A DNA stretch of 64,000 nucleotides from the NCBI RefSeq assembly GCF_001677475.2, contig NZ_CP015229.1. One strand, written 5' to 3'. This DNA comes from Escherichia coli (GTDB lineage: Bacteria > Pseudomonadota > Gammaproteobacteria > Enterobacterales > Enterobacteriaceae). Below the pieces are notes generated by a model that worked only from the letters and a program-made list of their open reading frames with translations, was not told the origin of the DNA and did no database searches. A program made the position numbers and the translations under genes. Each line of letters begins with the position of its first letter. The stretch's first letter is position 1. Below are positions 48,055 through 63,734 of this stretch, in pieces.

Positions 48055-51000
48055 ATGGAAGAGGCATTCTGGGCGGCAAGGCAGGGTGATGCCCTGCTGC
48101 ATACGTCGTTTATGGCAGATGTGCTGGGGGCAGTTGTAGAGGTTGCCGCCACAGCCCTGGTGGATGTTCTGGTTGTCGGAACCATGGCGGCGCTGGGCGG
48201 AGTTGAAGTGGCAACGCTGGGCTGCTCAACCATTTTAGCGATCGGTATAGCAACAGCGGTATTTATGTCGTATCAGGGCTGGAATGACCGAATCAGTAGG
48301 GAAAGTGAGCAACTGGCGAACTGGCTTTTCCCGCCTCAGATTGAAGGTTACATCCTCACCGGCTCTGGCGACACATGGATCAACAGCAAACCTGCCGCGC
48401 GGGCCGCGGCGACTGCGGCATCGCGGCAGGACATTGAGGCGCAGGAGGCGCAGGCGAAGGCGGAACAGGAAGAAGCGCAGCGTCAGGAGGATGCCAGAAC
48501 GTTCCTGGATGTGGCCGGGGAATATCTGGAAATGGCGGGGGCCATAGCCCTGGCGGTTAACCCGGTGACAGGGCCTGTGCTGATGTCCCGGGCGCTGCAC
48601 GACCAGCTCAGTACGGAAGAAGGGCGTTCTGAAATGGTGGATGGCGTGACACATTTTGTGTCGGAACTATGGCAGCCCACCGTGGCCAGTGCGGCCCCGG
48701 GCTCCACCCCGACCCCTGACGATAAAATCGACTGCCATAAACATCCCTCCTCACTGACGCAGTTTCTCGCACAAAAAAAAGCCGCCTTTCTGGATGACCC
48801 CCTGGGAACGGCCCTTAACCTGCTGAGTCCGGGCGGTATGCTGGAAACCGCCTTTCAGGGAGTGAATGCGGTTATTGGCAGCATCAGTAATCTGTTCAAA
48901 GGCGATGATGAACCGCCCGCAGCGGAATATATCGCGGAAGGCGCGCGGGATGTGCGTATCAACAGCCAGCCGGCGGCACGCAGCGGGGCACGCTGCACCT
49001 GCGAGGCCAGGGTGGTGAATGAGCCGGGGAACGGGGCGTTTGTGTCACCGGATGTCCGCATTGGCGGTCCGTTACTGGTGGTCAGGGATATCAGAAGCGG
49101 CAGGTCGCAGATAACCCTGGTGGCAACCGTGGCGCTGATGTTTCTTCGCCCGGGCAAAATGCTTTCTAAAATCGCCTGTTTTGCTGCCAGTGTCGGGATG
49201 GGGGTGATGACGCAGAAGGCCATCAGTGCCCTTCCGCATCCGGTCAATGCCGCCACCGGAGCCAAATATCTGGCCGATGACGATGATTTTGACTTCAGTC
49301 TGCCGGGCCACTTTCCGCTGGACTGGCAGCGCGTGTACAGCAGTCGTGACGACCGCACGGAAGGGATGTTCGGGCAGGGCTGGAGTGTAATGTATGAAGT
49401 CAGCCTCGAGCGCACGCCGGGTACTGCTGACGAAAACTGTATGACCTTTGTGTCGGGCATGGGACGACGTCTGGATATGGAGGCCGTGCTGCCGGGGAGC
49501 GGGTTTTACAGCCCCGGCGAAGGACTGGCAGTACGGCGGGGTGAGCAGGGGCACTGGCTTATCAGCAGCGATGACGGGCAGTTTTTTCTGTTTGAGGCCG
49601 ACCCGCGTCACCCGCAGCGCCAGCGGCTGAAAATGCTGGGCGACCGCAACAGCAACTGTCTGAATCTGTACTACGACGAGCTGGGGCGCATCACGCAAAT
49701 CAGCGGTGAACAGCAGCGTCCGTGCATCCGTCTGCATTATGAACTGGCGGCGCATCCCCGGCGGGTGACACAGATTTATCAGCATTTCCCTGAGATGGCT
49801 CCTTTACTGCTGCGTCGTTACCGCTATGACGAGGCCGGCGACCTGAACGGCGTGTACGACAGCACGGGGCACCTGCTGCGCGAGTTTGCTTACGACGAAA
49901 ACCACTGCATGACCCTGCACCGCCAGCCGGGCGGCGAAGGGTATTATTACCAGTGGGGCTGGTATGAAGGCCCGGATGACGCAGCGTGGCGGGTGACGGG
50001 GCACCACACGGACAGCGGTGAACAGTACCGGCTGGCGTGGAGCCTGGCGGCACGCAGGCTGTGCGTGACGGACGGGCTGGGGCGCACGCGTTATCATCAG
50101 TGGGACGCGCAAAATCAGGTGACGGCGTACCAGGACGAAGCCGGGCAGGTGACGACGTTCCGCTGGAGCGACGAAGAACGGCTGTTACTGGGAATGACCG
50201 ATGCGCAGGGCGGCAAATGGCGCTATGTGTATGACCGGCAGGGGCATATCACGGAGACGCACGACCCGCTGGGGCGGGTGGCACAGACACAGTGGCACCC
50301 GGTGTGGCACCAGCCGGAAACGGAGGTGGACGCGGCGGGGAACAGCTGGTGCTGTGAGTACGATGAACGCGGCAATCTTCTTGCGGTGACCGACCCGCTG
50401 CAGCAGAACACCCGGTATCAGTATGACCGCCACGGCCAGGTGGTGCAGATAACGGATGCGCGCGGGGGGAATAAATACCTTCAGTGGAACGAAGACGGGC
50501 AGCTCATGCGGCACACGGACTGTTCCGGCTCGCAGACGGCCTGGTTCTACGACGAACGCACGCGGCTGATACGGATGACAGACGCGCAGAGCCACAGCAC
50601 GCGCTACGGGTATGACGACAGCGGCCACCTGACGGAGGTGATACTGGCGGACGGCCGCACGGTGAATTACCAGTCGGACGCGGCGGGCAGGCTGGTGAAG
50701 TACACCAGCCCGATGGGGAGGATAACGCGCTGGCAGCGGGACGGGCAGGGCCGGGTGCGCAGCCGGACAGACGCGACGGGGCGCAGGACGGCGTTCGGGT
50801 ACGATGCCTACGGGCGTCTGGTCACGCTCACGAACGAGAACGGAGAAAGCTACCGGTTCCGCCATGACGTGCTGGACCGTCTGGCGGAGCAGATAAATCC
50901 GGACGGCTGCCGCCAGACGTACCGCTACAACGCGCTGAACGCGGTCACGGAAGTGGTGTTCACCGGGGACCGGGGCGGTGAAATCCGCCACCGGCTGGCA

Positions 51001-52737
51001 CGTGATGCGGCGGGCCGGCTCACGGCAAAGGAGACAGCCGATGGCCATACGGAATACGTCCATGATGCGGCAGACCAGCTACTGGAAATCCGCCGCCGAC
51101 GGTCGGATGCCGGGGAAACAGACGCACCGGAGATTATCCGTTTCAGTTACGACAGACTGGGGCGGATGCTGACCGAGGAGACGGCGCAGGGCGTCCTGAC
51201 CCATCAGTACGATGAACTCAGCAACCGGACAGCCACCACCTTTCCGGATGGCAGAACGCAGCGTCATCTGTACTACGGCAGCGGCCATCTCCAGCAGATA
51301 AATCTGGACCGGGAGGTCATCAGCGAGTTCACACGTGACGCCCTGCACCGGGAAGTGCTCAGAAGTCAGGGGCGACTGAGCACGCGGCAGCTTTATGACC
51401 CCGCCGGGCGGCTGAAGCGCAGGGAGACATACAGCGGGATGCGCGGGGTGGTACCGGAGACGTTCACGGACCGGCAGTACAGCTACAGCGGCGAGGATGA
51501 ATTGCTGAAGACGCGGCACAGCCGGCGGGGGGAAACGGATTACTTCTACGACCCCACGGGGCGCATCACGGCGTGCCGCTCGGAGGATGAGAGGTATCTG
51601 GCGAGCTGGCAGTACGACGCGGCGGGAAACCTGCTGGGGAGGCGCGCGGGGGAAAGGGCCACGGCAGAAAACAGCGTGGTGCCGTTCAACCGGCTGATGT
51701 CTTACCGTGGTGTGCACTACCGTTATGACGAATTTGGCCGGACGGTGGAAAAGGAGGGCCGGAGCGGCACGCAGAGTTACCGTTATGATGCGGAACACCG
51801 GATGGTGGAAGTGACGACAGCGCGGGGGACATACCGGTATGTGTACGATGCGCTGGGGAGGCGGACGGAAAAACAGCACATCAGCCCTGACGGTAAACCG
51901 TACAACCGGACGACATTTTTATGGGACGGAATGCGGCTGGCGCAGGAGAGCAGGCCGGAGGGAATAAGCAGCCTGTATATCTACAGCGACCCGGGGAGTT
52001 ATGAACCGCTGGCGCGGGTGGATAAGGCGGGCAAAGAGGGCCCGAACCGGATACTGTATTTTCACACGGATGTGAACGGTGCGCCGGAAGAGATGACGGA
52101 CAGTGACGGGAAAATCGTGTGGGAGACGGGGTATCAGGTCTGGGGTAACACGATACAGGAGAAGGACCACGGCGGGGTGGAGCAGAACCTGCGCTACCAG
52201 GGACAGTACCTCGACAGGGAAACGGGGCTGCATTACAATCTGCACAGGTACTATGATCCGGATGTCGGGCGGTTCATGGTAACGGACCCGATAGGGCTGG
52301 CGGGGGGACTGAATCTTTACCAATACTCACCGAATCCAATAAGTTGGATCGACCCGCTGGGATTAACAGGGGAGTGGGTTAATCCCAAAGATATTAATTT
52401 TTCTCAAAGAACAATATCACCTCATGATTATGCCGATATTATGCGTAATGGTGGTTGGGATTGGGACAGGTCTCCATTAAGAGTAATTGATATTGATGGG
52501 CAATTAGTTTCTTATGATAATAGGCGATTAGACGCAGCTCTAGAGGCCGGATTAGATAAGGTTAAAGTCATTAGAGTTGACCCTAATGCTCCTCATCCTG
52601 ACTCATCTACTGGAAAAACATGGTTACAAAAATTCCGAGAGAGATTTAGAGATCGAAGAAATATAAAGGCCGGTGGAATAGTACCAGATAAAGGATTAAA
52701 TTCTCGACCGGAAAGAACATCAAGAGGTTGCAAATGA
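48055..52737 (+). CDS. Full-length prePAAR/PAAR-Rhs (YD-repeat) polymorphic toxin with C-terminal ParB/Srx-like toxin tip
   Basis: 1560 aa. The AARQGDALLH prePAAR motif lies at 48073-48102. Two hydrophobic TM regions flank PAAR-like segments. A long GC-rich YD-repeat core follows. The core-end motif PNPISWIDPLGL has DPLGL at 52351-52365. An AT-rich 123-aa tip follows. Confidence 0.93.
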   Translation: MEEAFWAARQGDALLHTSFMADVLGAVVEVAATALVDVLVVGTMAALGGVEVATLGCSTILAIGIATAVFMSYQGWNDRISRESEQLANWLFPPQIEGYILTGSGDTWINSKPAARAAATAASRQDIEAQEAQAKAEQEEAQRQEDARTFLDVAGEYLEMAGAIALAVNPVTGPVLMSRALHDQLSTEEGRSEMVDGVTHFVSELWQPTVASAAPGSTPTPDDKIDCHKHPSSLTQFLAQKKAAFLDDPLGTALNLLSPGGMLETAFQGVNAVIGSISNLFKGDDEPPAAEYIAEGARDVRINSQPAARSGARCTCEARVVNEPGNGAFVSPDVRIGGPLLVVRDIRSGRSQITLVATVALMFLRPGKMLSKIACFAASVGMGVMTQKAISALPHPVNAATGAKYLADDDDFDFSLPGHFPLDWQRVYSSRDDRTEGMFGQGWSVMYEVSLERTPGTADENCMTFVSGMGRRLDMEAVLPGSGFYSPGEGLAVRRGEQGHWLISSDDGQFFLFEADPRHPQRQRLKMLGDRNSNCLNLYYDELGRITQISGEQQRPCIRLHYELAAHPRRVTQIYQHFPEMAPLLLRRYRYDEAGDLNGVYDSTGHLLREFAYDENHCMTLHRQPGGEGYYYQWGWYEGPDDAAWRVTGHHTDSGEQYRLAWSLAARRLCVTDGLGRTRYHQWDAQNQVTAYQDEAGQVTTFRWSDEERLLLGMTDAQGGKWRYVYDRQGHITETHDPLGRVAQTQWHPVWHQPETEVDAAGNSWCCEYDERGNLLAVTDPLQQNTRYQYDRHGQVVQITDARGGNKYLQWNEDGQLMRHTDCSGSQTAWFYDERTRLIRMTDAQSHSTRYGYDDSGHLTEVILADGRTVNYQSDAAGRLVKYTSPMGRITRWQRDGQGRVRSRTDATGRRTAFGYDAYGRLVTLTNENGESYRFRHDVLDRLAEQINPDGCRQTYRYNALNAVTEVVFTGDRGGEIRHRLARDAAGRLTAKETADGHTEYVHDAADQLLEIRRRRSDAGETDAPEIIRFSYDRLGRMLTEETAQGVLTHQYDELSNRTATTFPDGRTQRHLYYGSGHLQQINLDREVISEFTRDALHREVLRSQGRLSTRQLYDPAGRLKRRETYSGMRGVVPETFTDRQYSYSGEDELLKTRHSRRGETDYFYDPTGRITACRSEDERYLASWQYDAAGNLLGRRAGERATAENSVVPFNRLMSYRGVHYRYDEFGRTVEKEGRSGTQSYRYDAEHRMVEVTTARGTYRYVYDALGRRTEKQHISPDGKPYNRTTFLWDGMRLAQESRPEGISSLYIYSDPGSYEPLARVDKAGKEGPNRILYFHTDVNGAPEEMTDSDGKIVWETGYQVWGNTIQEKDHGGVEQNLRYQGQYLDRETGLHYNLHRYYDPDVGRFMVTDPIGLAGGLNLYQYSPNPISWIDPLGLTGEWVNPKDINFSQRTISPHDYADIMRNGGWDWDRSPLRVIDIDGQLVSYDNRRLDAALEAGLDKVKVIRVDPNAPHPDSSTGKTWLQKFRERFRDRRNIKAGGIVPDKGLNSRPERTSRGCK
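50912..52299 (+). repeat. 1388-bp direct repeat, copy A (rhs core 3' part)
   Basis: Aligns without indels to 60705-62092 at a constant offset of 9793 nt. Only four amino-acid differences separate the translated copies. Confidence 0.9.
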
Positions 52738-53168
52738 AAAATATTATTCAGTTATGGGAAGATGGTTTATTACCGATAAAAGATGCTATTTACTTTTCTA
52801 ACGGTGAATCTTTCCTTTGTAAAATAACATCTTACCCTACTCCTTGTATTGAGAAAAATGGTGAGTTTGATTTCTCTGCCTTTTATGAAAAAAATAAAGA
52901 TGAAGTTACTGATATTGATAAGTCTAGAGAAGTTAAATTAGCGAATAATTGCTATTGTTGCATTGGAGAAGGTAGTTATGGTTCTGAAGGATTTATCGCA
53001 TATCTCGATGAAAATAAAAACTTAGTTTGGGTTCTTTATTCCGAAGAATCTAATCCATTTATTAATATAACTGAATATACATCTGATATTATTATAGTAG
53101 AATCAAGTTCTAATATTAGACTAAGAATAAATATAAACAATCCAGTGGATTTAGAATTGGCATTTTAA
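52734..53168 (+). CDS. Cognate Rhs immunity protein (RhsI), family unknown
   Basis: 144 aa. Its ATG overlaps the rhs stop (ATGA at 52734-52737) and an SD aagagg lies upstream. AT-rich like the toxin tip. Confidence 0.75.
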   Translation: MKNIIQLWEDGLLPIKDAIYFSNGESFLCKITSYPTPCIEKNGEFDFSAFYEKNKDEVTDIDKSREVKLANNCYCCIGEGSYGSEGFIAYLDENKNLVWVLYSEESNPFINITEYTSDIIIVESSSNIRLRININNPVDLELAF

Positions 53169-53170
53169 AT

Positions 53171-53208
53171 AAAAAGCCGGGTGAAATTAAATCTTCCCGG
53201 CTTTTTTA
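53171..53208. terminator. Cassette hairpin H1 (bidirectional terminator shared by rhsI and the symE-like gene)
   Basis: aaaaaGCCGGGtgaaattaaatcttCCCGGCtttttt. Confidence 0.75.
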
Positions 53209-53212
53209 TTAT

Positions 53213-53542
53213 TTAACTCTCGTTCAGCACACTAAACATCCCGTTCCGCATCCCCTTAACCACCTGTTTAACCTGATAAAGTTCTTCCCGCAGCTCCTGC
53301 ACCTCGTCACTGTCAGCGATGATGGTCAGGTACCCCTCCGAAATCTTCACCGTGACACCCCGCCCGGTATCAAATCCCGCCTCAGCCAGCCAGTCGCCCT
53401 TGAGGTGCAGGCTGGGATGTTGTGAATAATACCGGGCTATACCTGTTGTGCGGTCCTGGTGGCGGGTTCTGACATAGCCGACTTTATAGCGGCGCTGGGT
53501 TTTGGAAATGGTGACTTCTGGCGTAATATCGTGTTCAGCCAT
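53213..53542 (-). CDS. SymE-family (AbrB/SpoVT-fold, type I toxin-like) protein, intact copy
   Basis: 109 aa. The segment HLKGDWLAEAGFDTGRGVTVKISEGYLTII aligns with remembered K-12 SymE [32 protein letters not shown]. An SD aggag lies 7 nt before the ATG. Confidence 0.75.
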   Translation of the reverse strand: MAEHDITPEVTISKTQRRYKVGYVRTRHQDRTTGIARYYSQHPSLHLKGDWLAEAGFDTGRGVTVKISEGYLTIIADSDEVQELREELYQVKQVVKGMRNGMFSVLNES

Positions 53543-53616
53543 GATTAACTACTCCTGTTAGTTGCTTGTGGTGAGCGGCTGTTACAGGCGGCAACCTGTA
53601 GCAGTCGCGTTAAATA

Positions 53617-53760
53617 TCAACGCATTACCTTCATTACCTGCTTCATCTTCTCCTGGGTGATCGCCATATCCAGAATACGGCAGATCACTTCCTGATCGTC
53701 TGCTTTAAGCTCATCAACCTGCTTACACAGTTCTTTTAACCGCTTGTTTTTTATATCGAA
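53617..53760 (-). pseudogene. 3' fragment of an unknown gene upstream of symE-like copy 1, apparently cut by the GC-rich fragment
   Basis: The minus frame reads ..DIKNKRLKELCKQVDELKADDQEVICRILDMAITQEKMKQVMKVMR* (stop at 53617-53619). There is no start codon. AT-rich sequence ends abruptly at about 53760. Confidence 0.3.
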
Positions 53761-54861
53761 AACATCGCGGAAGAAGAAGGTGTGCGCCAGGCGGCCTACG
53801 CGCTCAAGCTGTTGCAGTCGGACGGGGAACTGACCATCGCCAGTACGGGCAAGGATGACGCCAGCGGTAACCTGGTCACCAAACAGTATACGGTGAAAGG
53901 CCCGGTGATGCTGATGCTGACCACCACCGCCATCGATGTTGACGAGGAGTTACTCAACCGCTGTCTGGTGCTGACGGTGAACGAATCGCGGGAACAGACG
54001 GAAGCTATCCACGCGGCGCAGCGTTACGCGCAGACGCTGGAAGGACTGCTGGCGGCTAACGAAAAAAGTTACATCACGCAGCTTCACCAGAACGCGCAGC
54101 GGCTGCTGCGCCCGCTCAACGTGGTGAACCCGTTCGCCTCGCAGCTCACGTTCATGAGCGACAAAACCCGCACCCGGCGCGACCACATGAAATACCTGAC
54201 GCTGATCCAGGCGATCGCCCTGCTGCACCAGTACCAGCGGGAGATCAAGCGCGTGGAGCATCGCGGGCAGGTGGTGGAGTACATCGAGGTCACGCGGGAG
54301 GACATCGCCCTGGCGAACCGCCTGGCACATGAAATACTCGGGCGCACCCTGGATGAAATGCCGCCGCAGACGCGCAAACTGTTAACCCTGATCCAGCAAT
54401 GGGTGAGCGACAGCGGTCAGGCGCGTGAGGCGATGCGGTTCACCCGTAAACAACTGCGTGACGCGGTACAGTGGGGCGACACGCAGCTCAAGATCCACCT
54501 GGCGCGGCTGGTCGAAATGGAATATCTGCTGGTCCACCGTCTCGGGCTGACGTTCTGCTATGAACTGCTGTTCGACGGGGACGGCAGCGCAGACACCGCG
54601 CACCTGTGCGGGCTGATCGACGTACCGGAACCACCGTATGACGTCGCCCGGTCGGGGGAAACGGTGAAGCAGCTGGCCTCTGGTCGGGCAGTGGTCGGCG
54701 GTCAGTCGGGTAAGGAAAAAACCGCCTCAGACCAGACACCACGAGGCTTACAGGCCGGAGCGGTCGGGGCAGAGGAAAAAGCCCTGTTCCGGCAGAACGC
54801 AAAAAAACCGTCCCGCAATCATACTGCGGCCCGTCCGGGCCGGAGCAACACGGAAGCATAA
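53761..54861 (+). pseudogene. 5'-truncated gene of a GC-rich mobile element (large conserved protein, function not assignable here)
   Basis: The ORF reading ..IAEEEGVRQAAYALKLLQSDGELTIASTGKD... has no plausible native start. Composition changes sharply at about 53760. It is followed by a tyrosine recombinase gene. Confidence 0.55.
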
Positions 54862-54895
54862 GTACGACTTCATCCGGTCGGGGCAACGGCTGCAA

Positions 54896-54939
54896 TAGTC
54901 GGCCCCTGGTCGGCAGTCAGTCGGCGGGTAGTCGGGGTG
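54896..54939. repeat. Four tandem 11-bp iteron-like repeats containing GTCGG
   Basis: tagtcggcccc / tggtcggcagt / cagtcggcggg / tagtcggggtg. A fifth GTCGG lies at 54877-54881. The repeats lie between the truncated gene and the recombinase gene. Confidence 0.7.
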
Positions 54940-55065
54940 CGTAAAACCCCCGCAGGCCGCGCCCGGCAAGGTTCAGGCCATGAAGCGGTCGGCCTGCCTG
55001 AAAATCACTGTTCCATCCTCTGTTCTTCTCTCTGTCGTACCGTAATCTCAATCAGGACAATCATC

Positions 55066-56095
55066 ATGACAAAACCCATCCCTCCGGGGCCGGAGGAACT
55101 TTACCTCAGCCGCCAGAACCTGACGCAGCGCCAGTATGTGGTGGTGTGGCTGGAATACCTGACGGCACAGAACTACAGCGCGATCAGCGTAAGCGACTAT
55201 CGCGAACGGGTGTTACCGTTCGTGACATGGTGTGAGGAGCGCGGGCTGATGTACGCGCCGCAGGTCAGCCAGCCGCAGCTTGAAAGCTATCAGCGCCACC
55301 TTCACGGCTACCGTAAGGCGGACGGCCATCCGCTGGCGGTCAGCGGTCAGGTGGGCCGGATAAGCGCGATAAAAATCTTTTACCGCTGGCTGCTGAAGCG
55401 GCATGTGATCCTGTACAACCCCGCCGATCTGCTGGAACTGCCAAAGCCGGACAAACGGCTTCCGGCGCAGGTGTTCAGTAAGGGCGAGACGCGGCAGGTG
55501 TTACAGAGCCTTGATATCAACACGCCCGTTGGCCTGCGCAACCGGACAATCCTTGAGGTGCTGTGGAGTACCGGGATCAGGCGGATGGAGCTGGCCAGCC
55601 TGATGTTGTGGGATGTTGACACCGGGCGCGGTGTGGTTAACGTGCGGCAGGGTAAGGGGCGTAAGGATCGGGTGGTTCCGGTGGGCCATGTGGCGCTGGG
55701 ATGGCTGGCAAGACGTGCGACCACAGATGACGCGCCAGCGCGACAGTGGTCATCTGTTCGTGACGAAATACGGCAGCGGGATGAAACGCAACACGCTGAC
55801 GGCGATGGCAGGCACCGCGATCCGGGAAACGGCACGGATCGACAAACCGGGCGCGTGCCATATCTTCCGGCACTCGATGGCGACGCAGATGCTGGACAAT
55901 GGCGCAGACACGCGGCATATCCAGGCGATCCTCGGCCATGAGAAGCTGGAGACGACGCAGATCTACACGAAGGTGGCCATAAAGCCGTTGCAGAAGGTTC
56001 ATGCGCGGACGCACCCGGCAGAGAAGCGGCGAAGGGAAAAGCGCGTGCAGCAGCCGGACGAGGCCACCGTATCGCCGGACAGCCTGAAAAGTTAG
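55066..56095 (+). pseudogene. Tyrosine recombinase (XerC/D-like integrase), frameshifted
   Basis: MTKPIPPG...TGIRRMELASL...[12 protein letters not shown] is in one frame. After about 55710 the homology continues in the +1 frame ([36 protein letters not shown]). The catalytic Arg is therefore separated from the HxxR and Tyr residues. Confidence 0.8.
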
Positions 56096-56260
56096 GTGGC
56101 GATCCCTGTAAGGCCGTGGGGTGCGGTGCAGGGCAGACAACCGCCTTCCCTGGCGGTTGACTGCCCCCTGCCAGCGGCGTGCGCGGGGGTAAATGCCGTC
56201 CGCCCCGTGGAGGCAGCCGCGCCCCATGCGACCATGCAGCACGGGGCAAACGTCATTCAA

Positions 56261-56352
56261 CATAATGCGGATTATGCGCACTCTCGCCGGTCGGCAATGA
56301 CGGCGAACCCGATCCGCTGTGCGCGGCTCGTGTTCGCACAATCCGCATTATG
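56261..56352. repeat. Imperfect 20-bp inverted repeat with a 52-bp spacer
   Basis: cataatgcggattatgcgca (56261-56280) against the reverse complement of ttcgcacaatccgcattatg (56333-56352). 18/20 positions match, including 13 contiguous. Confidence 0.7.
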
Positions 56353-57005
56353 TCTGACGCCCCCGCGTTCAGCCCCGTGGTCCGTGCAGCGCAAAGCTTC
56401 GCTGGCGCTCCGCTCTGCTGCCGGGTGCGGTGTTCTTCTGTGGCCCCGCAGTCGCCGCCATCCCTGGCGGCTCCGGTGCCGTTCTGCGGCAGCGTCATCG
56501 TGTGGCAGTCAGTCAGAAAAGGGTGTCGGCCTGGCGGCCTCCGCTTGTAAGGGCTTTATGCCCGCCCGGCGTCGTCTGGCTGCGGCGGCTCGTGCCGCGC
56601 AAAAAGGCCGCGCGTCACTCGTTCCCGCCTCGCCAGCTTCCGCTGCCCGCCCCGGTCAGGTGTGGTCATGCAAAGGCAACCCCCGGTCAGGCAGCGGTGC
56701 CACAGAGCGCCGTTCCGTCGCTTGCGGACTCTCTGCCGCCCGCACCCGCAGACCCCGCGCCGTGGCCCCGCCATGCCGCCGGAGGCGTCCTGGCGGCCCC
56801 CCGTCACGGGGTGCCGGAAACGGACTTAGTGGAAAGCGGAATGACAGGCGGTGGTGGTGGTGCTATGGTGAGCGGGCGTGAAAATGCGCGTCGGGAAAGT
56901 CGGGTTAACGTGCTGTTAAATAAGTAAAAGGTGATAGCCGGGAAGCCAGAAACGGCGCGGGCGGTAGCGTGTTAAAAAGTGTGACCTGCACCGGATCGTT
57001 CCGAT

Positions 57006-57515
57006 GACCCGATAGGACTGCGGGGTGGATTAAATCTCTATCAATATGCGCCGAATCCGTTGAGCTATATTGATCCTCTTGGCCTTTGTAAATTAAGGGG
57101 AAGTAATGGGCGCTTCAGAAGTGCTCAGAATATTCAGGAAGAAATAGGCGGACTACCTAATTTTTCAGGGAAGACTCCAGGGCAAATACGACAAACTTTG
57201 CGTAATCGAGTTTATTCGTCGGTACAAGCGCATAGTGGTGGAGAGGTCTGGACAAAAGCATTACCTGACGGAAATACTGTTGCTGTGAGAATTGACCCGG
57301 CAAATCCTCGCTCACCTTCACATTATGCTGATGCTGTGCCTCATGCTCATATTGAAACAGTTCCAACGTCCAGTGTTTCTAATGGGAATTATCGCCCACG
57401 AGACGTGACTGGCAGGCATACTGCCACTGGTGGGATTTCTGACCGAGGAACGAATCCGAATCATAATGCTGATGTTCACATTCCAATGTCTCCGGGACGA
57501 TTCCCATATAATTAA
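57006..57515 (+). CDS. Orphan Rhs C-terminal toxin 1 (core stub + CT domain of unknown family); no own start codon
   Basis: [27 protein letters not shown] is followed by a 143-aa AT-rich CT. The frame opens just after a TGA, with only an internal TTG at 57060. Confidence 0.75.
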   Translation, partial: DPIGLRGGLNLYQYAPNPLSYIDPLGLCKLRGSNGRFRSAQNIQEEIGGLPNFSGKTPGQIRQTLRNRVYSSVQAHSGGEVWTKALPDGNTVAVRIDPANPRSPSHYADAVPHAHIETVPTSSVSNGNYRPRDVTGRHTATGGISDRGTNPNHNADVHIPMSPGRFPYN

Positions 57516-57526
57516 TGTGAGGTTTT

Positions 57527-57790
57527 ATGAATATCCGAAATCAATATAATGAAGCCTTAAATAAATTAGAAGTTGATGTTAATGATGGTTTAAGAGATTT
57601 AATAAACATATATTGTGTAGCTATTGATTCTTTTGAAAATGATATCGTTGACTCGATTGCTTTATACGTGATTGATATGGGAAATAAAGATACTTGTCGA
57701 TATCTACAAGAAATATTATCAGAGAATGAAGATCCTTATTTAGTAAAAGAATTTAATGCATGGATGAAAGAAATTAAGAAAAAATATTAA
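57527..57790 (+). CDS. Orphan immunity protein 1
   Basis: 87 aa. It begins 11 nt after the toxin stop with an SD gagg. AT-rich. Confidence 0.7.
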   Translation: MNIRNQYNEALNKLEVDVNDGLRDLINIYCVAIDSFENDIVDSIALYVIDMGNKDTCRYLQEILSENEDPYLVKEFNAWMKEIKKKY

Positions 57791-57793
57791 AAT

Positions 57794-57831
57794 AAAAGCC
57801 GGGACGGTTATTAAATCTTCCCGGCTTTTTT
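57794..57831. terminator. Cassette hairpin H2
   Basis: aaaaGCCGGGacggttattaaatcttCCCGGCtttttt. Confidence 0.75.
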
Positions 57832-57836
57832 ATTAC

Positions 57837-58070
57837 TTAACTTTCGTTCAGCACACTAAACATCCCGTCACGCATTCCCTTAACCGCCTGTTTAACCAGA
57901 TAAAGTTCCCTGCGCAGTTCCTGTACTTCGTTGTTATCCGCAAGCAGGATCAGACATCCTTCCGAGATCTTCACGGTGACGCCCGTGCCGATCTCAAATC
58001 CCGCTTCTCTCAGCCATTTTGCGCTGATTTTGATTACCGGCGTGTCGCTGCGGTTGGGCAGATAACCCAC
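57837..58070 (-). CDS. SymE-family ORF, copy 2, lacking a canonical start upstream of the conserved N-terminal segment
   Basis: 77 aa from an in-frame GTG. The frame stays open upstream to 58154 and encodes the conserved ISKTQRHCTVGY segment, but contains no ATG/GTG/TTG or SD there. Confidence 0.5.
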   Translation of the reverse strand: MGYLPNRSDTPVIKISAKWLREAGFEIGTGVTVKISEGCLILLADNNEVQELRRELYLVKQAVKGMRDGMFSVLNES

Positions 58071-58376
58071 GGTACAGTGGCGCTGTGTTTTGGAAATGAT
58101 ATTCTTATATTTAATCTGCTGATTAGATAGTAAAATTAACTTCGTGCAGATAGCTTACTTTATCAGGGTGCGGCGGTAGTGTATGAACTATGACGTGATG
58201 GTTTTAGTGATTTATATACGAAAATGACAGTACGATCCGGACTTCGAATAGATTGCGCGATTTGACCCGATAGGGCTGGCGGGGGGATTAAATCTCTATC
58301 AATATGCGCCTAATCCGTTAAGTTATATTGATCCACTTGGATTGTGTCCTAAAACTGACTTTAAATGGGGAAATCC

Positions 58377-59667
58377 CAGGGAAAGATCACGTAATGCTGC
58401 TTTTTTGTACTAAACAATTCGCATTTTATGTTTAAAAATTGAGATATTCCTCATTACATAAAGCTGTTTTTTATTGCTTATACATGATCAAATACTCCTT
58501 ACATAATTAAGGAGAACAAAATGGAACTTAAAAAATTGATGGAACATATTTCTATTATCCCCGATTACAGACAAGCCTGGAAAGTGGAACATAAATTATC
58601 GGATATTCTACTGTTGACTATTTGTGCCGTTATTTCGGGTGCAGAAGGCTGGGAAGATATAGAGGATTTTGGGGAAACACATCTCGATTTTTTGAAGCAA
58701 TATGGTGATTTTGATAATGGTATTCCTGTTCACGATACCATTGCCAGAGTTGTATCCTGTATCAGTCCTGCAAAATTTCACGAGTGCTTTATTAACTGGA
58801 TGCGTGACTGCCATTCTTCAGATGATAAAGACGTCATCGCAATTGATGGAAAAACGCTCCGGCATTCTTATGACAAGAGTCGCCGCAGGGGAGCGATTCA
58901 TGTCATTAGTGCGTTCTCAACAATGCACAGTCTGGTCATCGGACAGATCAGGACGGATGAGAAATCAAATGAAATTACAGCTATCCCTGAACTTCTTAAC
59001 ATGCTGGATATTAAAGGAAAAATCATCACAACTGATGCGATGGGTTGCCAGAAAGATATTGCAGAGAAGATACAAAAACAGGGAGGTGATTATTTATTCG
59101 CTGTAAAAGGAAACCAGGGGCGGCTAAATAAAGCCTTTGAGGAAAAATTCCCACTGAAAGAATTAAATAATCCAGAGCATGACAGTTACGCAATTAGTGA
59201 AAAGAGTCACGGCAGAGAAGAAATCCGTCTTCACATTGTTTGCGATGTCCCTGATGAACTTATTGATTTCACGTTTGAATGGAAAGGACTGAAGAAATTA
59301 TGCGTGGCAGTCTCCTTTCGGTCAATAATAGCAGAACAAAAGAAAGAGCCAGAAATGACGGTCAGATATTATATCAGTTCTGCTGATTTAACCGCAGAGA
59401 AGTTCGCCACAGCAATCCGAAACCACTGGCACGTGGAGAATAAGCTGCACTGGCGTCTGGACGTGGTAATGAATGAAGACGACTGCAAAATAAGAAGAGG
59501 AAACGCCGCAGAATTATTTTCAGGGATACGGCACATCGCTATTAATATTTTAACGAATGATAAGGTATTCAAGGCAGGGTTAAGACGTAAGATGCGAAAA
59601 GCAGCCATGGACAGAAACTATCTCGCGTCAGTCCTTGCGGGGAGCGGGCTTTCGTAATCTTGCCCTG
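58377..59667 (+). mobile_element. ISAs1-family element (Rhs-associated H-repeat), 1291 bp
   Basis: Terminal IRs are CAGGGAAAGATCACGTAA and TTACGAAAGCCC..(rc CAGGGCAAGATTACGAAA). A perfect 10-bp target duplication GGGGAAATCC lies at 58367-58376 and 59668-59677. Confidence 0.9.
58521..59657 (+). CDS. ISAs1-family (H-repeat-associated) transposase
   Basis: 378 aa, starting [51 protein letters not shown]. Matches remembered YbfL/YhhI-type proteins. Confidence 0.92.
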
Positions 59668-60391: not shown

Positions 60392-60413
60392 GATTATAAT
60401 ATTATTAAGTTAT

Positions 60414-60447: not shown

Positions 60448-60452
60448 ATTAT

Positions 60453-60677
60453 TTAACTCTCGTTCAGCACACTAAACATCCCGTCACGCATCCCCTTAAC
60501 CGCCTGTTTAACCTGATAAAGTTCCCTGCGCAGTTCCTGTACTTCGTTGTTATCCGCGAGCAGGATCAGGCAACCTTCCGAGATCTTCACGGTAACGCCC
60601 GTACCGATCTCAAATCCCGCTTCTCTCAGCCATTTGGCGCTGATTTTGATCACCGGCGTGTCGCTGCGGTTGGGCAG
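60453..60677 (-). pseudogene. SymE-family gene, copy 3, 5'-truncated at the junction with an rhs core fragment
   Basis: Identical to copy 2 apart from one residue, back to ..LPNRSDTP. Homology stops at about 60677, where rhs-core-like sequence begins. Confidence 0.75.
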
Positions 60678-60704
60678 ATGCTGCGCTGGCAGCACGACGG
60701 CAGA

Positions 60705-62518
60705 GCCAGACGTACCGTTACAACGCGCTGAACGCGGTCACGGAAGTGGTGTTCACCGGGGACCGGGGCGGTGAAATCCGCCACCGGCTGGCACGTGATG
60801 CGGCGGGCCGGCTCACGGCAAAGGAGACAGCCGATAGCCGAACGGAATACGTCCATGATGCGGCAGACCAGCTACTGGAAATCCGCCGCCGACGGTCGGA
60901 TGCCGGGGAAATGGACGCACCGGAGATTATCCGTTTCAGTTACGACAGACTGGGGCGGATGCTGACTGAGGAGACGGCGCAGGGCGTCCTGACCCATCAG
61001 TACGATGAACTCAGCAACCGGACAGCCACCACCTTTCCGGACGGCAGAACGCAGCGTCATCTGTACTACGGCAGCGGCCATCTCCAGCAGATAAATCTGG
61101 ACCGGGAGGTCATCAGCGAGTTCACACGTGACGCCCTGCACCGGGAAGTGCTCAGAAGTCAGGGGCGACTGAGCACGCGGCAGCTTTATGACCCCGCCGG
61201 GCGGCTGAAGCGCAGGGAGACATACAGCGGGATGCGCGGGGTGGTACCGGAGACGTTCACGGACCGGCAGTACAGCTACAGCGGCGAGGATGAACTGCTG
61301 AAGACGCGGCACAGCCGGCGGGGGGAAACGGATTACTTCTACGACCCCACGGGGCGCATCACGGCGTGCCGCTCGGAGGATGAGGGGTATCTGGCGAGCT
61401 GGCAGTACGACGCGGCGGGAAACCTGCTGGGGAGGCGCGCGGGGGAAAGGGCCACGGCAGAAAACAGCGTGGTGCCGTTCAACCGGCTGATGTCTTACCG
61501 TGGTGTGCACTACCGTTATGACGAATTTGGCCGGACGGTGGAAAAGGAGGGCCGGAGCGGCACGCAGAGTTACCGTTATGATGCGGAACACCGGATGGTG
61601 GAAGTGACGACAGCGCGGGGGACATACCGGTATGTGTACGATGCGCTGGGGAGGCGGACGGAAAAACAGCACATCAGCCCTGACGGTAAAGCGTACAACC
61701 GGACGACATTTTTATGGGACGGAATGCGGCTGGCGCAGGAGAGCAGGCCGGAGGGAATAAGTAGCCTGTATATCTACAGCGACCCGGGGAGTTATGAACC
61801 GCTGGCGCGGGTGGATAAGGCGGGCAAAGAGGGCCCGAACCGGATACTGTATTTTCACACGGATGTGAACGGTGCGCCGGAAGAGATGACGGACAGTGAC
61901 GGGAAAATCGTGTGGGAGACGGGGTATCAGGTCTGGGGTAACACGATACAGGAGAAGGACCACGGCGGGGTGGAGCAGAACCTGCGCTACCAGGGACAGT
62001 ACCTCGACAGGGAAACGGGGCTGCACTACAATCTGCACAGGTACTATGATCCGGATGTCGGGCGGTTCATGGTAACGGACCCGATAGGGCTGAGAGGCGG
62101 ATTAAACTTATACCAATACGCGCCTAATCCGTTAAGCTGGATCGATCCTCTTGGATTAAGTGCCGCCTCTGATTTACCTCAATTAAAAGGAAGATCCCCA
62201 GGGGCAATAGGTTCTATTCTTACTGATAATGGATTCAATTTAGATAAACAAACAAGTACCGGGAATCAGACTTGGAGCCACGCCGATGGTTCTAAAGTTC
62301 GTGTCGATCCCTATGGAAACCAAAGTATGACTATGAAAAACGGTGATCCATTACCGAAATCAGGAGCTAACGCACATGTGCATAAATATGATCCCGGTGA
62401 GATACCGCTGAATGACAGAGGCATTCCGAGTACAAATCCAAATGAAACACATATAGGGATCAGGAATCCAAATGATTATTCTACAAAACGAGGGCGGGCC
62501 CATGGGTGCGGCGTATAA
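60705..62518 (+). CDS. Orphan Rhs fragment 3: 1.39-kb core 3' segment (direct repeat copy B, 60705-62092) plus a distinct CT toxin
   Basis: The translation is near-identical to main Rhs residues from QTYRYNALNAVTEVVFT to VTDPIGL. It then diverges: [22 protein letters not shown] followed by a 119-aa CT from 62159. The 5' side (60678-60704) is a scrambled YD fragment in another frame. The only start is an internal GTG at 60746. Confidence 0.85.
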
Positions 62519-62530
62519 GGTAAGAAATTA

Positions 62531-62815
62531 ATGAGTGTTGAATATGTTATACATGTCGATGATAAAGTAGATAATTTACTTTCTTTTATTGTCGAGAGAA
62601 TAAAGGAAAATCAACCATCCTCTCGAATTAATACTGACGGTTCACTTTGGATTCCATCTAGCTATTCAAATTGGATTGATTTTTCAATAGAAGACCATGA
62701 GGATGGTTTTTTTATTGTAAATAATTTAAATGGAAGTGATAGAGATAAATTATTTTCACTGATATTTACTGCCTTTCATGAATTATCTATAAAATATGAA
62801 ATAGAAGAAGTCTAA
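62531..62815 (+). CDS. Orphan immunity protein 3
   Basis: 94 aa. It begins 12 nt after the toxin-3 stop with an SD aagg. Confidence 0.7.
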   Translation: MSVEYVIHVDDKVDNLLSFIVERIKENQPSSRINTDGSLWIPSSYSNWIDFSIEDHEDGFFIVNNLNGSDRDKLFSLIFTAFHELSIKYEIEEV

Positions 62816-62817
62816 TG

Positions 62818-62897: not shown

Positions 62898-62902
62898 ATT
62901 AT

Positions 62903-63136
62903 TTAACTCTCGTTCAGTACACTAAATATCCCGTCACGCATACCCTTAACCACCTGTTTAACCTGATAAAGTTCCCTGCGCAGTTCCTGTACTTCGTTGT
63001 TATCTGCAAGCAGGATCTGGCAGCCTTCCGAGATCTTCACGGTAACGCCCGTGCCGATCTCAAATCCCGCTTCTCTCAGCCATTTTGCGCTGATTTTGAT
63101 TACCGGCGTGTCGCTGCGGTTGGGCAGATAACCCAC
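62903..63136 (-). CDS. SymE-family ORF, copy 4, lacking a canonical start upstream of the conserved N-terminal segment
   Basis: 77 aa, differing from copy 2 at 4 residues. The upstream conserved but start-less segment is the same as in copy 2. Confidence 0.5.
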   Translation of the reverse strand: MGYLPNRSDTPVIKISAKWLREAGFEIGTGVTVKISEGCQILLADNNEVQELRRELYQVKQVVKGMRDGIFSVLNES

Positions 63137-63329
63137 GGTACAGTGGCGCTGTGTTTTGGAAATGATATTTTTGTATTTAACCTGCTGATTAGATAGTAAA
63201 ATAAACTTCGTGCAGATAGCTTACTTTATCAGGGTGTGGCGGTAGCGTATGAACTATGATGCGGTGGTTTCAGGAATGTACGTACAAAATCGATAGTACG
63301 ATCCTCCAATCAGGTAGATTTGCTGCCCT

Positions 63330-63734
63330 GATCCGATAGGGCTAAGAGGCGGGCTGAACCTGTATGCTTATGCGCCTAATCCGCTGAAATATATTGATCC
63401 ACTCGGATTAAAAAAAGAGCTCTGTAATGGAACTACTCGTGTGCGGCATTATACTAATCGTAAAGGTTCAAATGCGATTGCTGAAAGTGGGATAATTAAG
63501 GCGCATGATAACGGTCGTGTATATTTGGAACCTGCGAATAAAAAACCACTCAGTCAAGTAGACATAGAGGCGAAATATCAAATAGGTCGTGGGAAAGGTA
63601 GAGATTATGTGGATACAGATGTATCTAACGAGCAATTAGAGTGGGTAACAAACCCTCGATATCATATAGATGAATTGACTGTGAAAGGTGATATTATTCT
63701 TTCTGAAAATGCAAAAATAACTCGGCGTAAATAA
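63330..63734 (+). CDS. Orphan Rhs C-terminal toxin 4 (possible HYD1-type ADP-ribosyltransferase); no own start codon
   Basis: DPIGLRGGLNLYAYAPNPLKYIDPLGL is followed by KKELCNGTTRVRHYTNRKGSNAIAESGII.... The frame opens after the TAG at 63315-63317. Confidence 0.7.
   Translation, partial: DPIGLRGGLNLYAYAPNPLKYIDPLGLKKELCNGTTRVRHYTNRKGSNAIAESGIIKAHDNGRVYLEPANKKPLSQVDIEAKYQIGRGKGRDYVDTDVSNEQLEWVTNPRYHIDELTVKGDIILSENAKITRRK

What the first reader, a model, noticed from the sequence alone, without database searches (positions are those of the whole stretch)
53213..53604. Only the SymE-like copy next to the expressed rhs is intact; the three orphan-linked copies lack a start codon
Copy 1 (53213-53542) has an ATG, an AGGAG SD and a 10-bp 5'-UTR hairpin (53579-53588 pairing with 53595-53604).

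Copies 2 and 4 conserve the N-terminal coding segment (..IISKTQRHCTVGYLPNRS..). Their frame opens after a TAA with no ATG/GTG/TTG or SD before an internal GTG. Copy 3 is cut off by the rhs core fragment.

Copies 2-4 are near-identical to each other (at most 4 differences in 77 aa). By eye they are only about 70 percent identical to copy 1.

Two explanations fit. The orphan-linked copies may be decaying. Alternatively, they may be kept translationally silent, as type I toxins often are, possibly by a SymR-like antisense RNA over the 5' end.
Basis: seen in the sequence. Interest (0 to 1): 0.55.

Follow-up and report, generated by a model that had tools for sequence, protein, structure and literature searches.

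The report
Beheaded SymE gene remnants beside Rhs
Three of the four small SymE-family toxin-like genes in this Escherichia Rhs toxin locus are most likely leftovers beheaded by recombination rather than deliberately silenced genes. The one intact copy carries a SymR/IsrA-type antisense RNA locus, so this is ordinary decay with an informative history.

Summary
Copy 1 (53213-53542, minus strand) is an intact 109-aa SymE-family gene. Copies 2 and 4 have no ATG/GTG/TTG before an internal GTG, and copy 3 is cut deeper.

The copies are two paralogue types. Copies 2-4 are 5'-truncated versions of a 97-aa type. That type is intact in other Escherichia, with the same first 17 residues as copy 1 (MAEHDITPEVTISKTQR).

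Copies 2 and 4 break at exactly the same base, after codon 11. The same junction occurs in 2 of 5426 E. coli genomes, in E. ruysiae and in Entomohabitans. Copy 3's junction occurs in 56 E. coli genomes. Protein databases show at least five junction types.

The deleted piece is exactly the part that holds the start codon, the SD and a SymR-like antisense RNA gene. That gene survives only at copy 1 (53537-53611, plus strand).

So silencing of copies 2-4 by a SymR-like RNA is not supported. Their low dN/dS (0.04-0.24) is largely explained by gene conversion, but residual selection is not excluded.

Copy 1 belongs to a decayed integrase-primase-cHTH-SymE element. Its cHTH partner is truncated.

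The parts
53213..53542 (-). Copy 1: an intact 109-aa SymE-family ORF of the '109 type'. ATG at 53542-53540, stop at 53215-53213.
   Evidence: Pfam PF08845 at 71.5 bits. It is 91% identical to the 109-aa gene of E. coli S10.
53552..53556 (-). AGGAG Shine-Dalgarno of copy 1, 9 nt before the ATG.
   Evidence: Sequence.
53537..53611 (+). SymR-like cis-antisense RNA candidate. It overlaps the start codon, SD and 5' leader of copy 1 and forms two hairpins.
   Evidence: Rfam symR RF01809, full model 1-77, 39 bits (gathering score 61), E=1.4e-4. Folding z = -3.9. The stem is stronger on the plus strand. Helix 2 covaries across genera.
53502..53529 (+). Predicted promoter of the SymR-like RNA inside the first codons of copy 1: TTGGAA, 16 nt, TAATAT. 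It puts the transcription start at about 53537.
   Evidence: Read from the sequence. It is conserved in 10 homologues. It falls below the threshold of the promoter scan, so it is an inference.
53343..53471 (+). Match to Rfam isrA (Salmonella island sRNA), antisense to codons about 24-67 of copy 1.
   Evidence: 107.5 bits against a gathering score of 51. The same match lies antisense to every 109/103-aa-type gene tested. IsrA/STM0294.1n show inverse expression in PMC2330248.
53171..53207 (.). Bidirectional terminator-like hairpin (GCCGGG..CCCGGC flanked by an A-run and a T-run) between the immunity gene and copy 1. It recurs after copies 2 and 3.
   Evidence: The copy 3 version was found by the terminator scan.
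53617..53764 (-). Remnant (last 49 codons) of the cHTH (Cro/cI-type) gene that precedes SymE in relatives. Its DNA-binding N-terminus and promoter region are deleted.
   Evidence: 99% identical to the 3' 148 nt of the 132-aa HTH gene of E. coli S10. The deletion corresponds to L001 3086-5277. The deletion junction is found in 0 of 5426 E. coli genomes.
53765..54861 (+). C-terminal remnant of the element's primase gene.
   Evidence: hits are annotated as CHC2 zinc finger/DNA primase.
54937..56095 (+). XerC-like tyrosine integrase, frameshifted into two ORFs (54937-55941 and 55613-56095).
57005..57790 (+). Orphan cassette 1. It comprises a sharply bounded 78-nt rhs tail (DPIGL..DPLGL, 57005-57082), a C-terminal toxin domain (to 57515) and a putative immunity gene (57527-57790).
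57837..58098 (-). Copy 2: 97-type SymE gene lacking codons 1-11, the SD and the upstream region (junction J1).
58099..58227 (.). J1 flank: about 130 nt conserved in every J1 copy, with no homologue elsewhere. Origin unknown.
58228..58376 (+). Degenerate rhs tail ([21 protein letters not shown]) plus a stub of the next orphan toxin domain. It is cut by ISEc1 (58377-59667).
60453..60679 (-). Copy 3: 97-type SymE gene lacking codons 1-22, fused to an rhs core fragment (junction J3).
   Evidence: The J3 junction is present in 56 of 5426 E. coli genomes.
60707..62815 (+). Orphan rhs core fragment with C-terminal toxin domain (ORF 60746-62518) and putative immunity gene (62531-62815).
62903..63164 (-). 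Copy 4: 97-type SymE gene with the same J1 truncation as copy 2. Its terminator stem is split by a 60-nt insertion (62827-62886).
63165..63409 (.). Second J1 flank plus the degenerate rhs tail of the next orphan cassette.

Best explanation
**What the copies are**

The window is the rhsC locus of an Escherichia strain. Each rhs toxin/immunity cassette ends with a convergent SymE-family gene.

Copy 1 is an intact 109-aa paralogue. It keeps its translation signals and a SymR-like antisense RNA gene over its 5' end, and it has an IsrA-family match further in.

Copy 1 belongs to a decayed mobile element: SymE, cHTH, then divergently primase, XerC-like integrase, a 78-nt rhs tail, toxin domain and immunity gene. 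This element probably delivered the current toxin tip of the main rhs.

**How copies 2-4 arose**

Copies 2-4 are remnants of a different, 97-aa paralogue. Recombination or deletion events that stacked older cassettes behind the main gene removed their first 11 codons (copies 2 and 4) or 22 codons (copy 3). The SD, promoter, SymR-like gene and cHTH gene went with them.

These junctions arose rarely. They then spread with the cassettes by homologous exchange between rhs tails and SymE sequences, including between genera.

**Why they look well preserved**

The remnants look well preserved because they are repeatedly overwritten by gene conversion from intact paralogues. They are most likely not translated.

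**Shown and inferred**

Shown: the truncation, the shared junctions, the loss of the SymR-like region, the mosaic variation and the decay of the element.

Inferred: non-expression of copies 2-4, the order of events, and delivery of the toxin tip by the element.
For: **Truncation of an intact type**
- The intact 97-aa type has the same N-terminus as copy 1 and a cHTH gene upstream, in E. coli S10 and E. ruysiae.
- The alignment shows the exact break after codon 11 in copies 2 and 4.

**Distribution of the junctions**
- J1 is also present in E. coli R32_14_1F (two loci), E. coli AR_0077, E. ruysiae (twice), Entomohabitans and two metagenome contigs.
- The whole cassette with its J1 junction is shared with Entomohabitans at 93.7% identity over 1325 nt.
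- J3 is present in 56 E. coli genomes.
- Protein clusters of 86, 83, 80, 79, 77, 74, 71, 70 and 66 aa show at least five different junctions.
- Pectobacterium has the same architecture with another SymE subtype.

**Decay**
- The AR_0077 J1 copy has a premature stop and a replaced 3' end.

**Gene conversion**
- Third-codon-position divergence among J1 copies (0.123) exceeds that of the adjacent non-coding flank (0.064). For Entomohabitans against R32 the figures are 0.105 against 0.014.
- Genome-specific variants are shared by intact and truncated copies of one genome.

**SymR-like RNA only at the intact copy**
-.

**Element decay and recurrence**
-.
Against: - Pairwise dN/dS among truncated copies is low, at 0.04-0.24.
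- Eight of nine J1 copies have no frameshift or stop.
- Changes private to truncated copies run N:S = 20:18 against a neutral expectation of about 3.3:1 (binomial P about 0.001). They do not differ significantly from intact copies (1:4, Fisher P = 0.34). Some continuing selection on the protein is therefore not excluded.
- The 130-nt J1 flank is better conserved (6.4% mean divergence) than the neighbouring rhs tail (21.7%) and is unexplained.
- No expression data exist for this strain.
- This window holds no intact 97-type donor for gene conversion. The array continues beyond base 64000.
Confidence: 0.7

Rival explanations
1. The truncated copies are still functional genes. They would be translated at a low level from the internal GTG (77 aa) or a non-canonical ATT/ATC start (about 86 aa). 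The product would keep the AbrB-like core and stay under purifying selection.
For: - dN/dS is low and the frames are intact in 8 of 9 J1 copies across four species.
- Private changes are still biased towards synonymous ones.
- The Pfam domain is largely retained; the match starts at residue 17 of the 98-aa frame.
- PGAP annotates such copies as genes with ATT or GTG starts, but that is only an annotation choice.
Against: - There is no SD before the GTG or the ATT/ATC codons, and no promoter-like site at the scan threshold.
- At least five different truncation points exist, rather than one conserved design.
- Synonymous divergence exceeds that of the flank, and variants are shared within genomes. 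This points to imported rather than in-situ variation.
- One copy has a stop codon.
- Several truncated cluster representatives carry radical changes at conserved positions, for example SEGC to SERC and LLAD to LPAD.
Confidence: 0.15
2. One reading: copies 2-4 are intact type I toxin genes. They would be held translationally silent by a SymR-like antisense RNA over their 5' ends.
For: - A SymR-like RNA does exist in this family.
- An antisense RNA (IsrA) to a homologous Salmonella gene shows inverse expression.
Against: - Copies 2-4 give no symR match. The deleted segment is exactly the one that carries the RNA body and its -10 box; only the -35-like TTGGAA remains.
- isrA matches to copies 2-4 score only 33-35 bits against a gathering score of 51.
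- These copies have no start codon for an antisense RNA to occlude.
Confidence: 0.04
3. The SymE remnant plus the J1 flank is kept for a role at the DNA or RNA level in the orphan array. One possibility is a homology arm which, together with the rhs tail, lets whole toxin/immunity cassettes be exchanged. Another is a promoter or leader for the next orphan cassette, since the retained TTGGAA is followed 16 nt later by TAATCT/TAACCT.
For: - The J1 flank is conserved at 6.4% mean divergence across species and genera, against 21.7% for the rhs tail.
- Identical junctions flank different cassettes at different loci, rhsC and rhsE.
- A whole cassette bounded by a tail and a SymE remnant is shared with Entomohabitans.
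Against: - The codon-position pattern (positions 1+2 at 0.028, position 3 at 0.123) is that of a protein-coding history, not of a DNA-level constraint.
- The promoter scan reports no site there.
- J1 is rare, found in 2 of 5426 E. coli genomes.
- Use as a homology arm needs no selection; it can be a passive consequence.
Confidence: 0.1

Closest known systems
SymE/SymR type I toxin-antitoxin locus of E. coli K-12 (Kawano et al. 2007, PMC1891008)
   Same: Both have a SymE-family (PF08845, AbrB-like) protein. At copy 1 a two-hairpin antisense RNA sits in the same position, over the start codon and leader, and aligns with the full Rfam symR model.
   Different: The protein is not the K-12 orthologue: the NCBIfam SymE equivalog scores 41-45 bits against a cut-off of 132. 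The symR score is below the gathering score (39-48 bits against 61). No LexA box was found. The gene sits in a mobile element next to rhs cassettes, and in relatives behind a cHTH gene.
cHTH-SymE operons with a primase-helicase gene in mobile islands and RHS neighbourhoods (Kawano et al. 2007, gene-neighbourhood section)
   Same: The gene set and order match: Cro/cI-type HTH, SymE-family gene, divergent large primase, RHS context, and an optional second SymE copy.
   Different: In this window the cHTH gene is reduced to 49 codons and the primase and integrase are pseudogenes. The 5'-truncated copies at orphan junctions were not described in that paper, as far as I read it.
IsrA sRNA / STM0294.1n sense-antisense pair of Salmonella SPI-6 (Padalon-Brauch et al. 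2008, PMC2330248)
   Same: The Rfam isrA model matches the strand opposite copy 1 at 107.5 bits, above the gathering score of 51. The paper reports cis-antisense overlap and inverse expression.
   Different: The paper gave the overlapped gene no functional annotation. That it is a SymE-family gene is my inference from the Rfam match. Transcription has not been shown in Escherichia. Copies 2-4 match only weakly.
Rhs orphan toxin/immunity cassettes formed by C-terminal displacement (Jackson et al. 2009 and Koskiniemi et al. 2014; cited from my own knowledge, not read here)
   Same: There is a main rhs followed by silent cassettes. Each cassette begins with a piece of rhs core ending in the DPxGL motif, followed by a toxin tip and an immunity gene.
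   Different: Here every cassette is additionally closed by a convergent SymE-family gene or remnant. One cassette is still attached to an integrase-primase element.
Recombinase-associated immunity/toxin arrays: XerC/D next to polyimmunity loci (Zhang et al. 2012, PMC3482391) and rAID-1 of Bacteroidales (Ross et al. 2019, from my own knowledge)
   Same: A tyrosine recombinase gene is linked to an array of orphan toxin/immunity cassettes that have repeated boundaries.
   Different: The phylum and the recombinase context differ. The element here also carries a primase, a cHTH gene and SymE, and it ends in a precise 78-nt rhs tail. Recombinase activity at that tail is untested.

Membership tests
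SymE toxin family (Pfam PF08845) | Match to the SymE_toxin domain above the gathering score | tested here: met
   Copies 1-4 score 71.5, 54.9, 43.4 and 50.1 bits against a gathering score of 29.
SymE proper (orthologue of E. coli K-12 SymE, NCBIfam NF010128 equivalog) | Score above the curated equivalog cut-off | tested here: not met
   41-44.6 bits against a cut-off of 132 for all four copies.
SymE/SymR-type type I toxin-antitoxin system | Cis-antisense sRNA overlapping the toxin's ribosome-binding site and start codon | tested here: inconclusive
   Copy 1: full-length symR match at 53537-53611 (+), 39 bits against a gathering score of 61. It has the correct position, a strand-specific structure and covariation. 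Transcription has not been shown. Copies 2-4: no match, because the region is deleted.
SymE/SymR-type type I toxin-antitoxin system | Translatable toxin ORF with a start codon and ribosome-binding site | tested here: not met
   Met for copy 1. Not met for copies 2-4, the subject of the claim.
SymE/SymR-type type I toxin-antitoxin system | SOS (LexA box) control of the toxin promoter, as in K-12 | tested here: not met
   No CTG-N10-CAG site near any copy in the window. The S10 comparison regions gave only one GC-rich match (3 A/T in the 10-nt spacer), inside the cHTH gene.
SymE/SymR-type type I toxin-antitoxin system | Toxicity of the protein and neutralisation by the RNA | not testable with these tools
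   Needs expression experiments.
IsrA sRNA family (Rfam RF01385) | Covariance-model score above the gathering score | tested here: met
   Copy 1 antisense strand, 53343-53471: 107.5 bits against 51. Copies 2-4: 33-35 bits, not met.
cHTH-SymE operon (type II-like arrangement, Kawano 2007) | Intact Cro/cI-type HTH gene directly upstream on the same strand | tested here: not met
   Only the last 49 codons remain at 53617-53764. The gene is intact in E. coli S10, Salmonella and Erwinia.
Rhs orphan cassette array | Fragments of rhs core ending in DPxGL, followed by a variable C-terminal domain and a small downstream gene, behind a full-length rhs | tested here: met
   Tails lie at 57005-57082, 58263-58343, 62078-62157 and 63329-63409. 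RHS Pfam domains occur in ORF 60746-62518.
Pseudogene (non-functional remnant) | Loss of the start, promoter and part of the coding sequence relative to intact homologues | tested here: met
Pseudogene (non-functional remnant) | Neutral pattern of substitution (omega about 1, with frameshifts and stops accumulating) | tested here: inconclusive
   Pairwise omega is 0.04-0.24. Private N:S is 20:18. One of nine J1 copies is disrupted. The result is confounded by gene conversion.

The most novel reading that the evidence does not exclude
The SymE genes here may be the addiction or regulatory module of an undescribed family of integrative elements. The gene order is SymE, cHTH, then divergently DnaG-type primase and XerC-like integrase. 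The elements carry an rhs toxin tip and an immunity gene behind a precisely bounded 78-nt rhs 'tail'.

By recombining at that tail (the conserved DPIGL..DPLGL coding segment found in rhs genes), the element would swap its toxin onto a resident rhs. The old tip would be pushed downstream. This would be the mechanism of Rhs 'C-terminal displacement'. The start-less SymE copies would be the scars of older, decayed insertions.

Support:
- The same gene order is seen downstream of rhs or other toxin cassettes in Escherichia, Salmonella, Erwinia (tandem units) and Xenorhabdus.
- In Escherichia, Erwinia and Xenorhabdus the rhs homology after the integrase starts exactly at DP(I/V)GL. It is preceded by a conserved non-rhs arm of about 35 nt. 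In the Salmonella locus the stored sequence stops just past the integrase, so this could not be checked.
- The element backbone is 58-72% G+C.

I found no description of such an element in the searched literature. This is an absence of hits, not proof of novelty.
Probability: 0.35. Interest if true: 0.65.

Novelty: new member of a known kind. Interest (0 to 1): 0.33.

Why it matters
In itself the finding is ordinary: the start-less copies are truncated leftovers. It still has three uses.

First, public annotation pipelines call these remnants 'SymE family type I addiction module toxin', with ATT or internal GTG starts. This inflates toxin-antitoxin counts.

Second, dN/dS on multi-copy remnants is misleading when gene conversion is active.

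Third, the remnants are datable scars that record how Rhs toxin arrays are built. They point to an integrase-primase-cHTH-SymE element as a possible vehicle for new toxin tips, which can be tested directly in strains that hold an intact element.

Tried and rejected
- **LexA/SOS control.** No CTG-N10-CAG box lies near any copy in the window.
- **Promoters for copies 1-4, or antisense promoters at the J1 junctions.** The consensus scan gives nothing there, and hits over the whole region are at chance level: 17 found against 14.7 expected.
- **Origin of the 130-nt J1 flank.** It has no homologue outside J1 copies in any fetched locus. Its similarity to the rhs core is no better than shuffled sequence upstream of the YDPD codons: score 35 against 34 +/- 5. 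My first guess, that the whole flank is degenerate rhs core, is therefore withdrawn.
- **Empty-site against occupied-site comparison (E. coli S10 against AR_0077) to define the element's insertion point.** The neighbouring immunity genes differ, so the pair is not informative. Two cut points (the SymE 5' block or the rhs tail) give the same linear order. I prefer the tail because.
- **'Hypothetical' ORFs 56096-56881 and 56430-56927.** They match no family and have a Pro/Arg/Ala/Trp-rich composition. They do not resemble the Erwinia ORF in the same position. They are probably not genes.
- **Rfam Ssr1 matches over all four copies.** The scores are far below the gathering score (88-283 bits against 820). 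The Ssr1 model spans a 654-nt Shigella 'intergenic' region whose 3' part aligns with the strand opposite these SymE genes. The mapped ~150-nt Ssr1 RNA lies upstream of that part. The matches are therefore not evidence for antisense transcription here.
- **Metagenome and species-representative scans for the J1 junction.** They returned only 2 and 3 loci. That is too few for a population test.

Full report
**Context**

The left part of the window carries kdpFABCDE and is 96.6-97.6% identical to E. coli. The region studied is therefore the rhsC locus of an Escherichia strain that is not in the E. coli complete-genome set.

The main rhs is 48055-52737 (+). A small overlapping ORF that is presumably the immunity gene follows at 52728-53168. 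Four SymE-family sequences then lie on the minus strand. Each is convergent with a toxin/immunity cassette.

**Checking the observation**

Copy 1 (53213-53542) has ATG, AGGAG 9 nt upstream, and 109 codons.

In copies 2 and 4 the frame opens after a TAA. It contains only ATT/ATC/CTA-type codons before the internal GTG. Copy 3 loses homology at 60679, next to an rhs core fragment. All four match Pfam SymE_toxin above threshold. The description is correct.

Two details need adjusting. Identity to copy 1 is about 64% at protein level, with a 12-residue indel. The hairpin is a 14-bp stem that is stronger on the opposite strand.

**What copies 2-4 are**

E. coli S10 carries two intact SymE-family genes at the same locus:
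- a 109-aa gene next to ybgA, 91% identical to copy 1;
- a 97-aa gene, MAEHDITPEVTISKTQRRCTVGYLPNRS..., directly behind a Cro/cI-type HTH gene.

Copies 2-4 are 94-97% identical in DNA to the 97-aa type. They differ from copy 1 because they are another paralogue, not because they have drifted.

The two types share a nearly identical block of about 87 nt, covering the leader and the first 20 codons.

Copies 2 and 4 end at exactly the same base inside that block (..GTCAC|CATTTCC..). They have lost codons 1-11, the SD and everything upstream. I call this junction J1.

**How the junctions are distributed**

J1 is inherited, not recurrent noise. It is found at the following places:
- two loci of E. 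coli R32_14_1F, where PGAP calls an ATT start at one and a GTG start at the other;
- E. coli AR_0077;
- E. ruysiae, twice;
- Entomohabitans teleogrylli;
- two metagenome contigs.

J1 is rare, present in 2 of 5426 E. coli genomes. The intact 5' end of the 97-aa type is in 59 genomes. Copy 3's junction (J3: codon 23 fused to rhs core) is in 56 genomes.

Protein clusters of 86, 83, 80, 79, 77, 74, 71, 70 and 66 aa show at least five different truncation points in Escherichia and Salmonella. Pectobacterium parmentieri has the same layout with a different SymE subtype: fragments at the internal junctions and an intact gene at the distal end.

In E. coli MEI003 and R32_14_1F the truncated copy is the one next to the main rhs. 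'Intact next to the expressed rhs' is therefore not a rule.

**The antisense RNA idea**

An Rfam scan found a full-length match to SymR on the plus strand at 53537-53611. It scores 39 bits against a gathering score of 61, with E=1.4e-4. This is exactly over the start codon, SD and leader of copy 1. Homologous positions in E. coli MEI003 and Salmonella score 48 bits.

The RNA folds into two hairpins, with z = -3.9.

Several observations favour the plus strand as the functional one:
- Helix 1 contains four G.U pairs. By base-pairing rules these would be A.C mismatches on the mRNA strand.
- Helix 2 is 7.5 kcal/mol more stable on the plus strand.
- Across Escherichia, E. ruysiae, Salmonella, Erwinia and Pectobacterium, helix 2 keeps 14 pairs with four different stem sequences. 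Nine of its 14 pairs change on both sides, and 0 of 500 shuffles reach the observed covariation score.
- A TTGGAA-16-TAATAT promoter-like site inside codons 5-14 puts the transcription start at the first base of the Rfam match. It is conserved; Salmonella and Pectobacterium have TAGAAT. It falls below the scan threshold, so it remains an inference.

Further in, the plus strand at 53343-53471 matches Rfam isrA at 107.5 bits against a gathering score of 51. IsrA is a Salmonella island sRNA. It was reported to overlap STM0294.1n in antisense and to be expressed inversely to it.

A SymR/IsrA-type antisense system is therefore plausible, but at the intact copy. J1 and J3 remove the RNA body and its -10 box. 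Copies 2-4 give no symR match and only sub-threshold isrA matches. No LexA box is present.

**Are the remnants under selection?**

Pairwise dN/dS among copies sharing J1 is 0.04-0.24, and eight of nine have intact frames. This looked like purifying selection after truncation. Three observations weaken that reading:
1. Mean divergence among J1 copies is 0.123 at third codon positions but only 0.064 in the adjacent 140-nt non-coding flank. For Entomohabitans against R32 the figures are 0.105 against 0.014. Much of the synonymous variation cannot have arisen in place since the junction formed.
2. Genome-specific variants are shared by intact and truncated copies of the same genome: sites 33C and 156A in E. 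ruysiae, and 148C on contig L006. This is the signature of gene conversion.
3. One J1 copy (AR_0077) has a stop codon and a replaced 3' end.

Changes private to truncated copies are N:S = 20:18. This is looser than in intact copies (1:4) but still below the neutral ratio (P about 0.001). The two classes are not statistically distinguishable.

I conclude that decay buffered by gene conversion is the best reading. I leave about 15% for continued translation.

**Copy 1 and its element**

Upstream of copy 1 only the last 49 codons of the cHTH gene remain. A 2.2-kb deletion, unique to this genome, removed its HTH domain, the divergent promoter region and the 5' 1.8 kb of the primase gene. The XerC-like integrase is frameshifted. 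Copy 1 therefore has an intact ORF, but its normal operon context is gone. Its expression is unknown.

The unit SymE-cHTH, with divergent primase and integrase, recurs as follows:
- in Salmonella, next to a cassette downstream of VgrG and DcrB genes; the rhs gene expected between them was not called in that locus;
- in Erwinia pyrifoliae, as tandem units carrying a Tox-HNH/SUKH cassette;
- in Xenorhabdus, with a CdiI-family immunity gene and without an adjacent cHTH gene.

This matches the neighbourhoods that Kawano et al. described in 2007.

In Escherichia, Erwinia and Xenorhabdus the integrase is followed by an rhs tail. The tail begins exactly at DP(I/V)GL and is preceded by a conserved non-rhs arm of about 35 nt. 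This suggests that the tail is the element's recombination site. On that view the main rhs tip, its immunity gene and copy 1 arrived together as the newest insertion, which would explain why copy 1 is the intact one here. This part is inference.

**Verdict**

The finding is real. Its most likely explanation is ordinary: recombination scars of a known gene family in a known kind of locus. The antisense-silencing reading fails for the copies it was proposed for. The interest lies in the annotation and dN/dS pitfalls, and in the possible cassette-delivering element.

Noticed in passing
window 53543-57836; also L001 2571-9499, L011, L013/L014, L017: A recurrent element has the order SymE, cHTH, then divergently a DnaG/Toprim-type primase (900-990 aa) and a XerC-like integrase, followed by a short rhs tail, a toxin domain and an immunity gene. 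It occurs in Escherichia, Salmonella, Erwinia (tandem units) and Xenorhabdus. In this window it is decayed: a 2.2-kb deletion and a frameshifted integrase.
   Followed up: partly
window 56970-57082; L001 about 8320-8427; L013; L017: In three genera the rhs homology downstream of the integrase starts exactly at the DP(I/V)GL codons. It is preceded by a conserved non-rhs motif (..AAAGTRYGA..CSGGRTMG..CCKA). This looks like an attachment-site arm abutting the 78-nt rhs tail.
   Followed up: partly
window 58099-58227 and 63165-63293: About 130 nt between the truncated SymE copy and the next rhs tail is conserved across all J1 copies (6.4% mean divergence). It has no homologue elsewhere and no significant similarity to the rhs core. 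Its origin and role are unknown.
   Followed up: partly
window 56100-57000: This stretch is 65-72% G+C and holds several inverted repeats, for example 56260-56289 with 56324-56353 and 56131-56145 with 56152-56166. The only ORFs are implausible ones rich in Pro, Arg and Trp. It may be a non-coding part of the element, such as an origin or recombination region.
   Followed up: no
window 62827-62886: The terminator stem after copy 4 (GCCGGG..CCCGGC) is split by a 60-nt insertion with its own inverted repeats (TTGGACTG..CAGTCCAA). Copies 1-3 have a 7-16-nt loop at this position.
   Followed up: no
window 58377-59667: An ISAs1-family ISEc1 copy (378-aa transposase, 97% identical to that of E. coli S10) is inserted about 33 nt after the rhs tail. 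It cuts off the toxin domain of the second orphan cassette.
   Followed up: partly
window 57760-58100, 60062-60707, 62668-63166, 53105-53512 (+): The Rfam family Ssr1 ('Shigella small RNA 1') matches all four SymE regions at 88-283 bits against a gathering score of 820. The 654-nt model covers a Shigella 'intergenic' region downstream of an Rhs gene. Its 3' 260 nt align with the strand opposite these SymE genes. The Rfam family therefore probably includes the antisense of an unannotated SymE-family gene.
   Followed up: partly
L002 12037-12297; L009 12107-12340; L010 8834-9076: RefSeq/PGAP annotates the truncated remnants as 'SymE family type I addiction module toxin'. It uses an ATT start, an internal GTG, or a GTG inside antisense rhs sequence. 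These are annotation artefacts that inflate toxin counts.
   Followed up: yes
L004 1995-2317 (E. ruysiae): The 109-aa-type copy of E. ruysiae appears frameshifted, aligning as two tblastn segments that overlap by 7 nt. Its 97-aa-type copy next to the intact element is whole. This is the reverse of the situation in this window.
   Followed up: no
window 58010-58027, 60626-60643, 63076-63093 (+): A weak terminator-like hairpin (TCAGCC..GCTGA followed by TTTTGAT) lies on the plus strand inside copies 2-4, antisense to the ..ISAKWL.. codons. It has only 5 pairs and may be chance.
   Followed up: no
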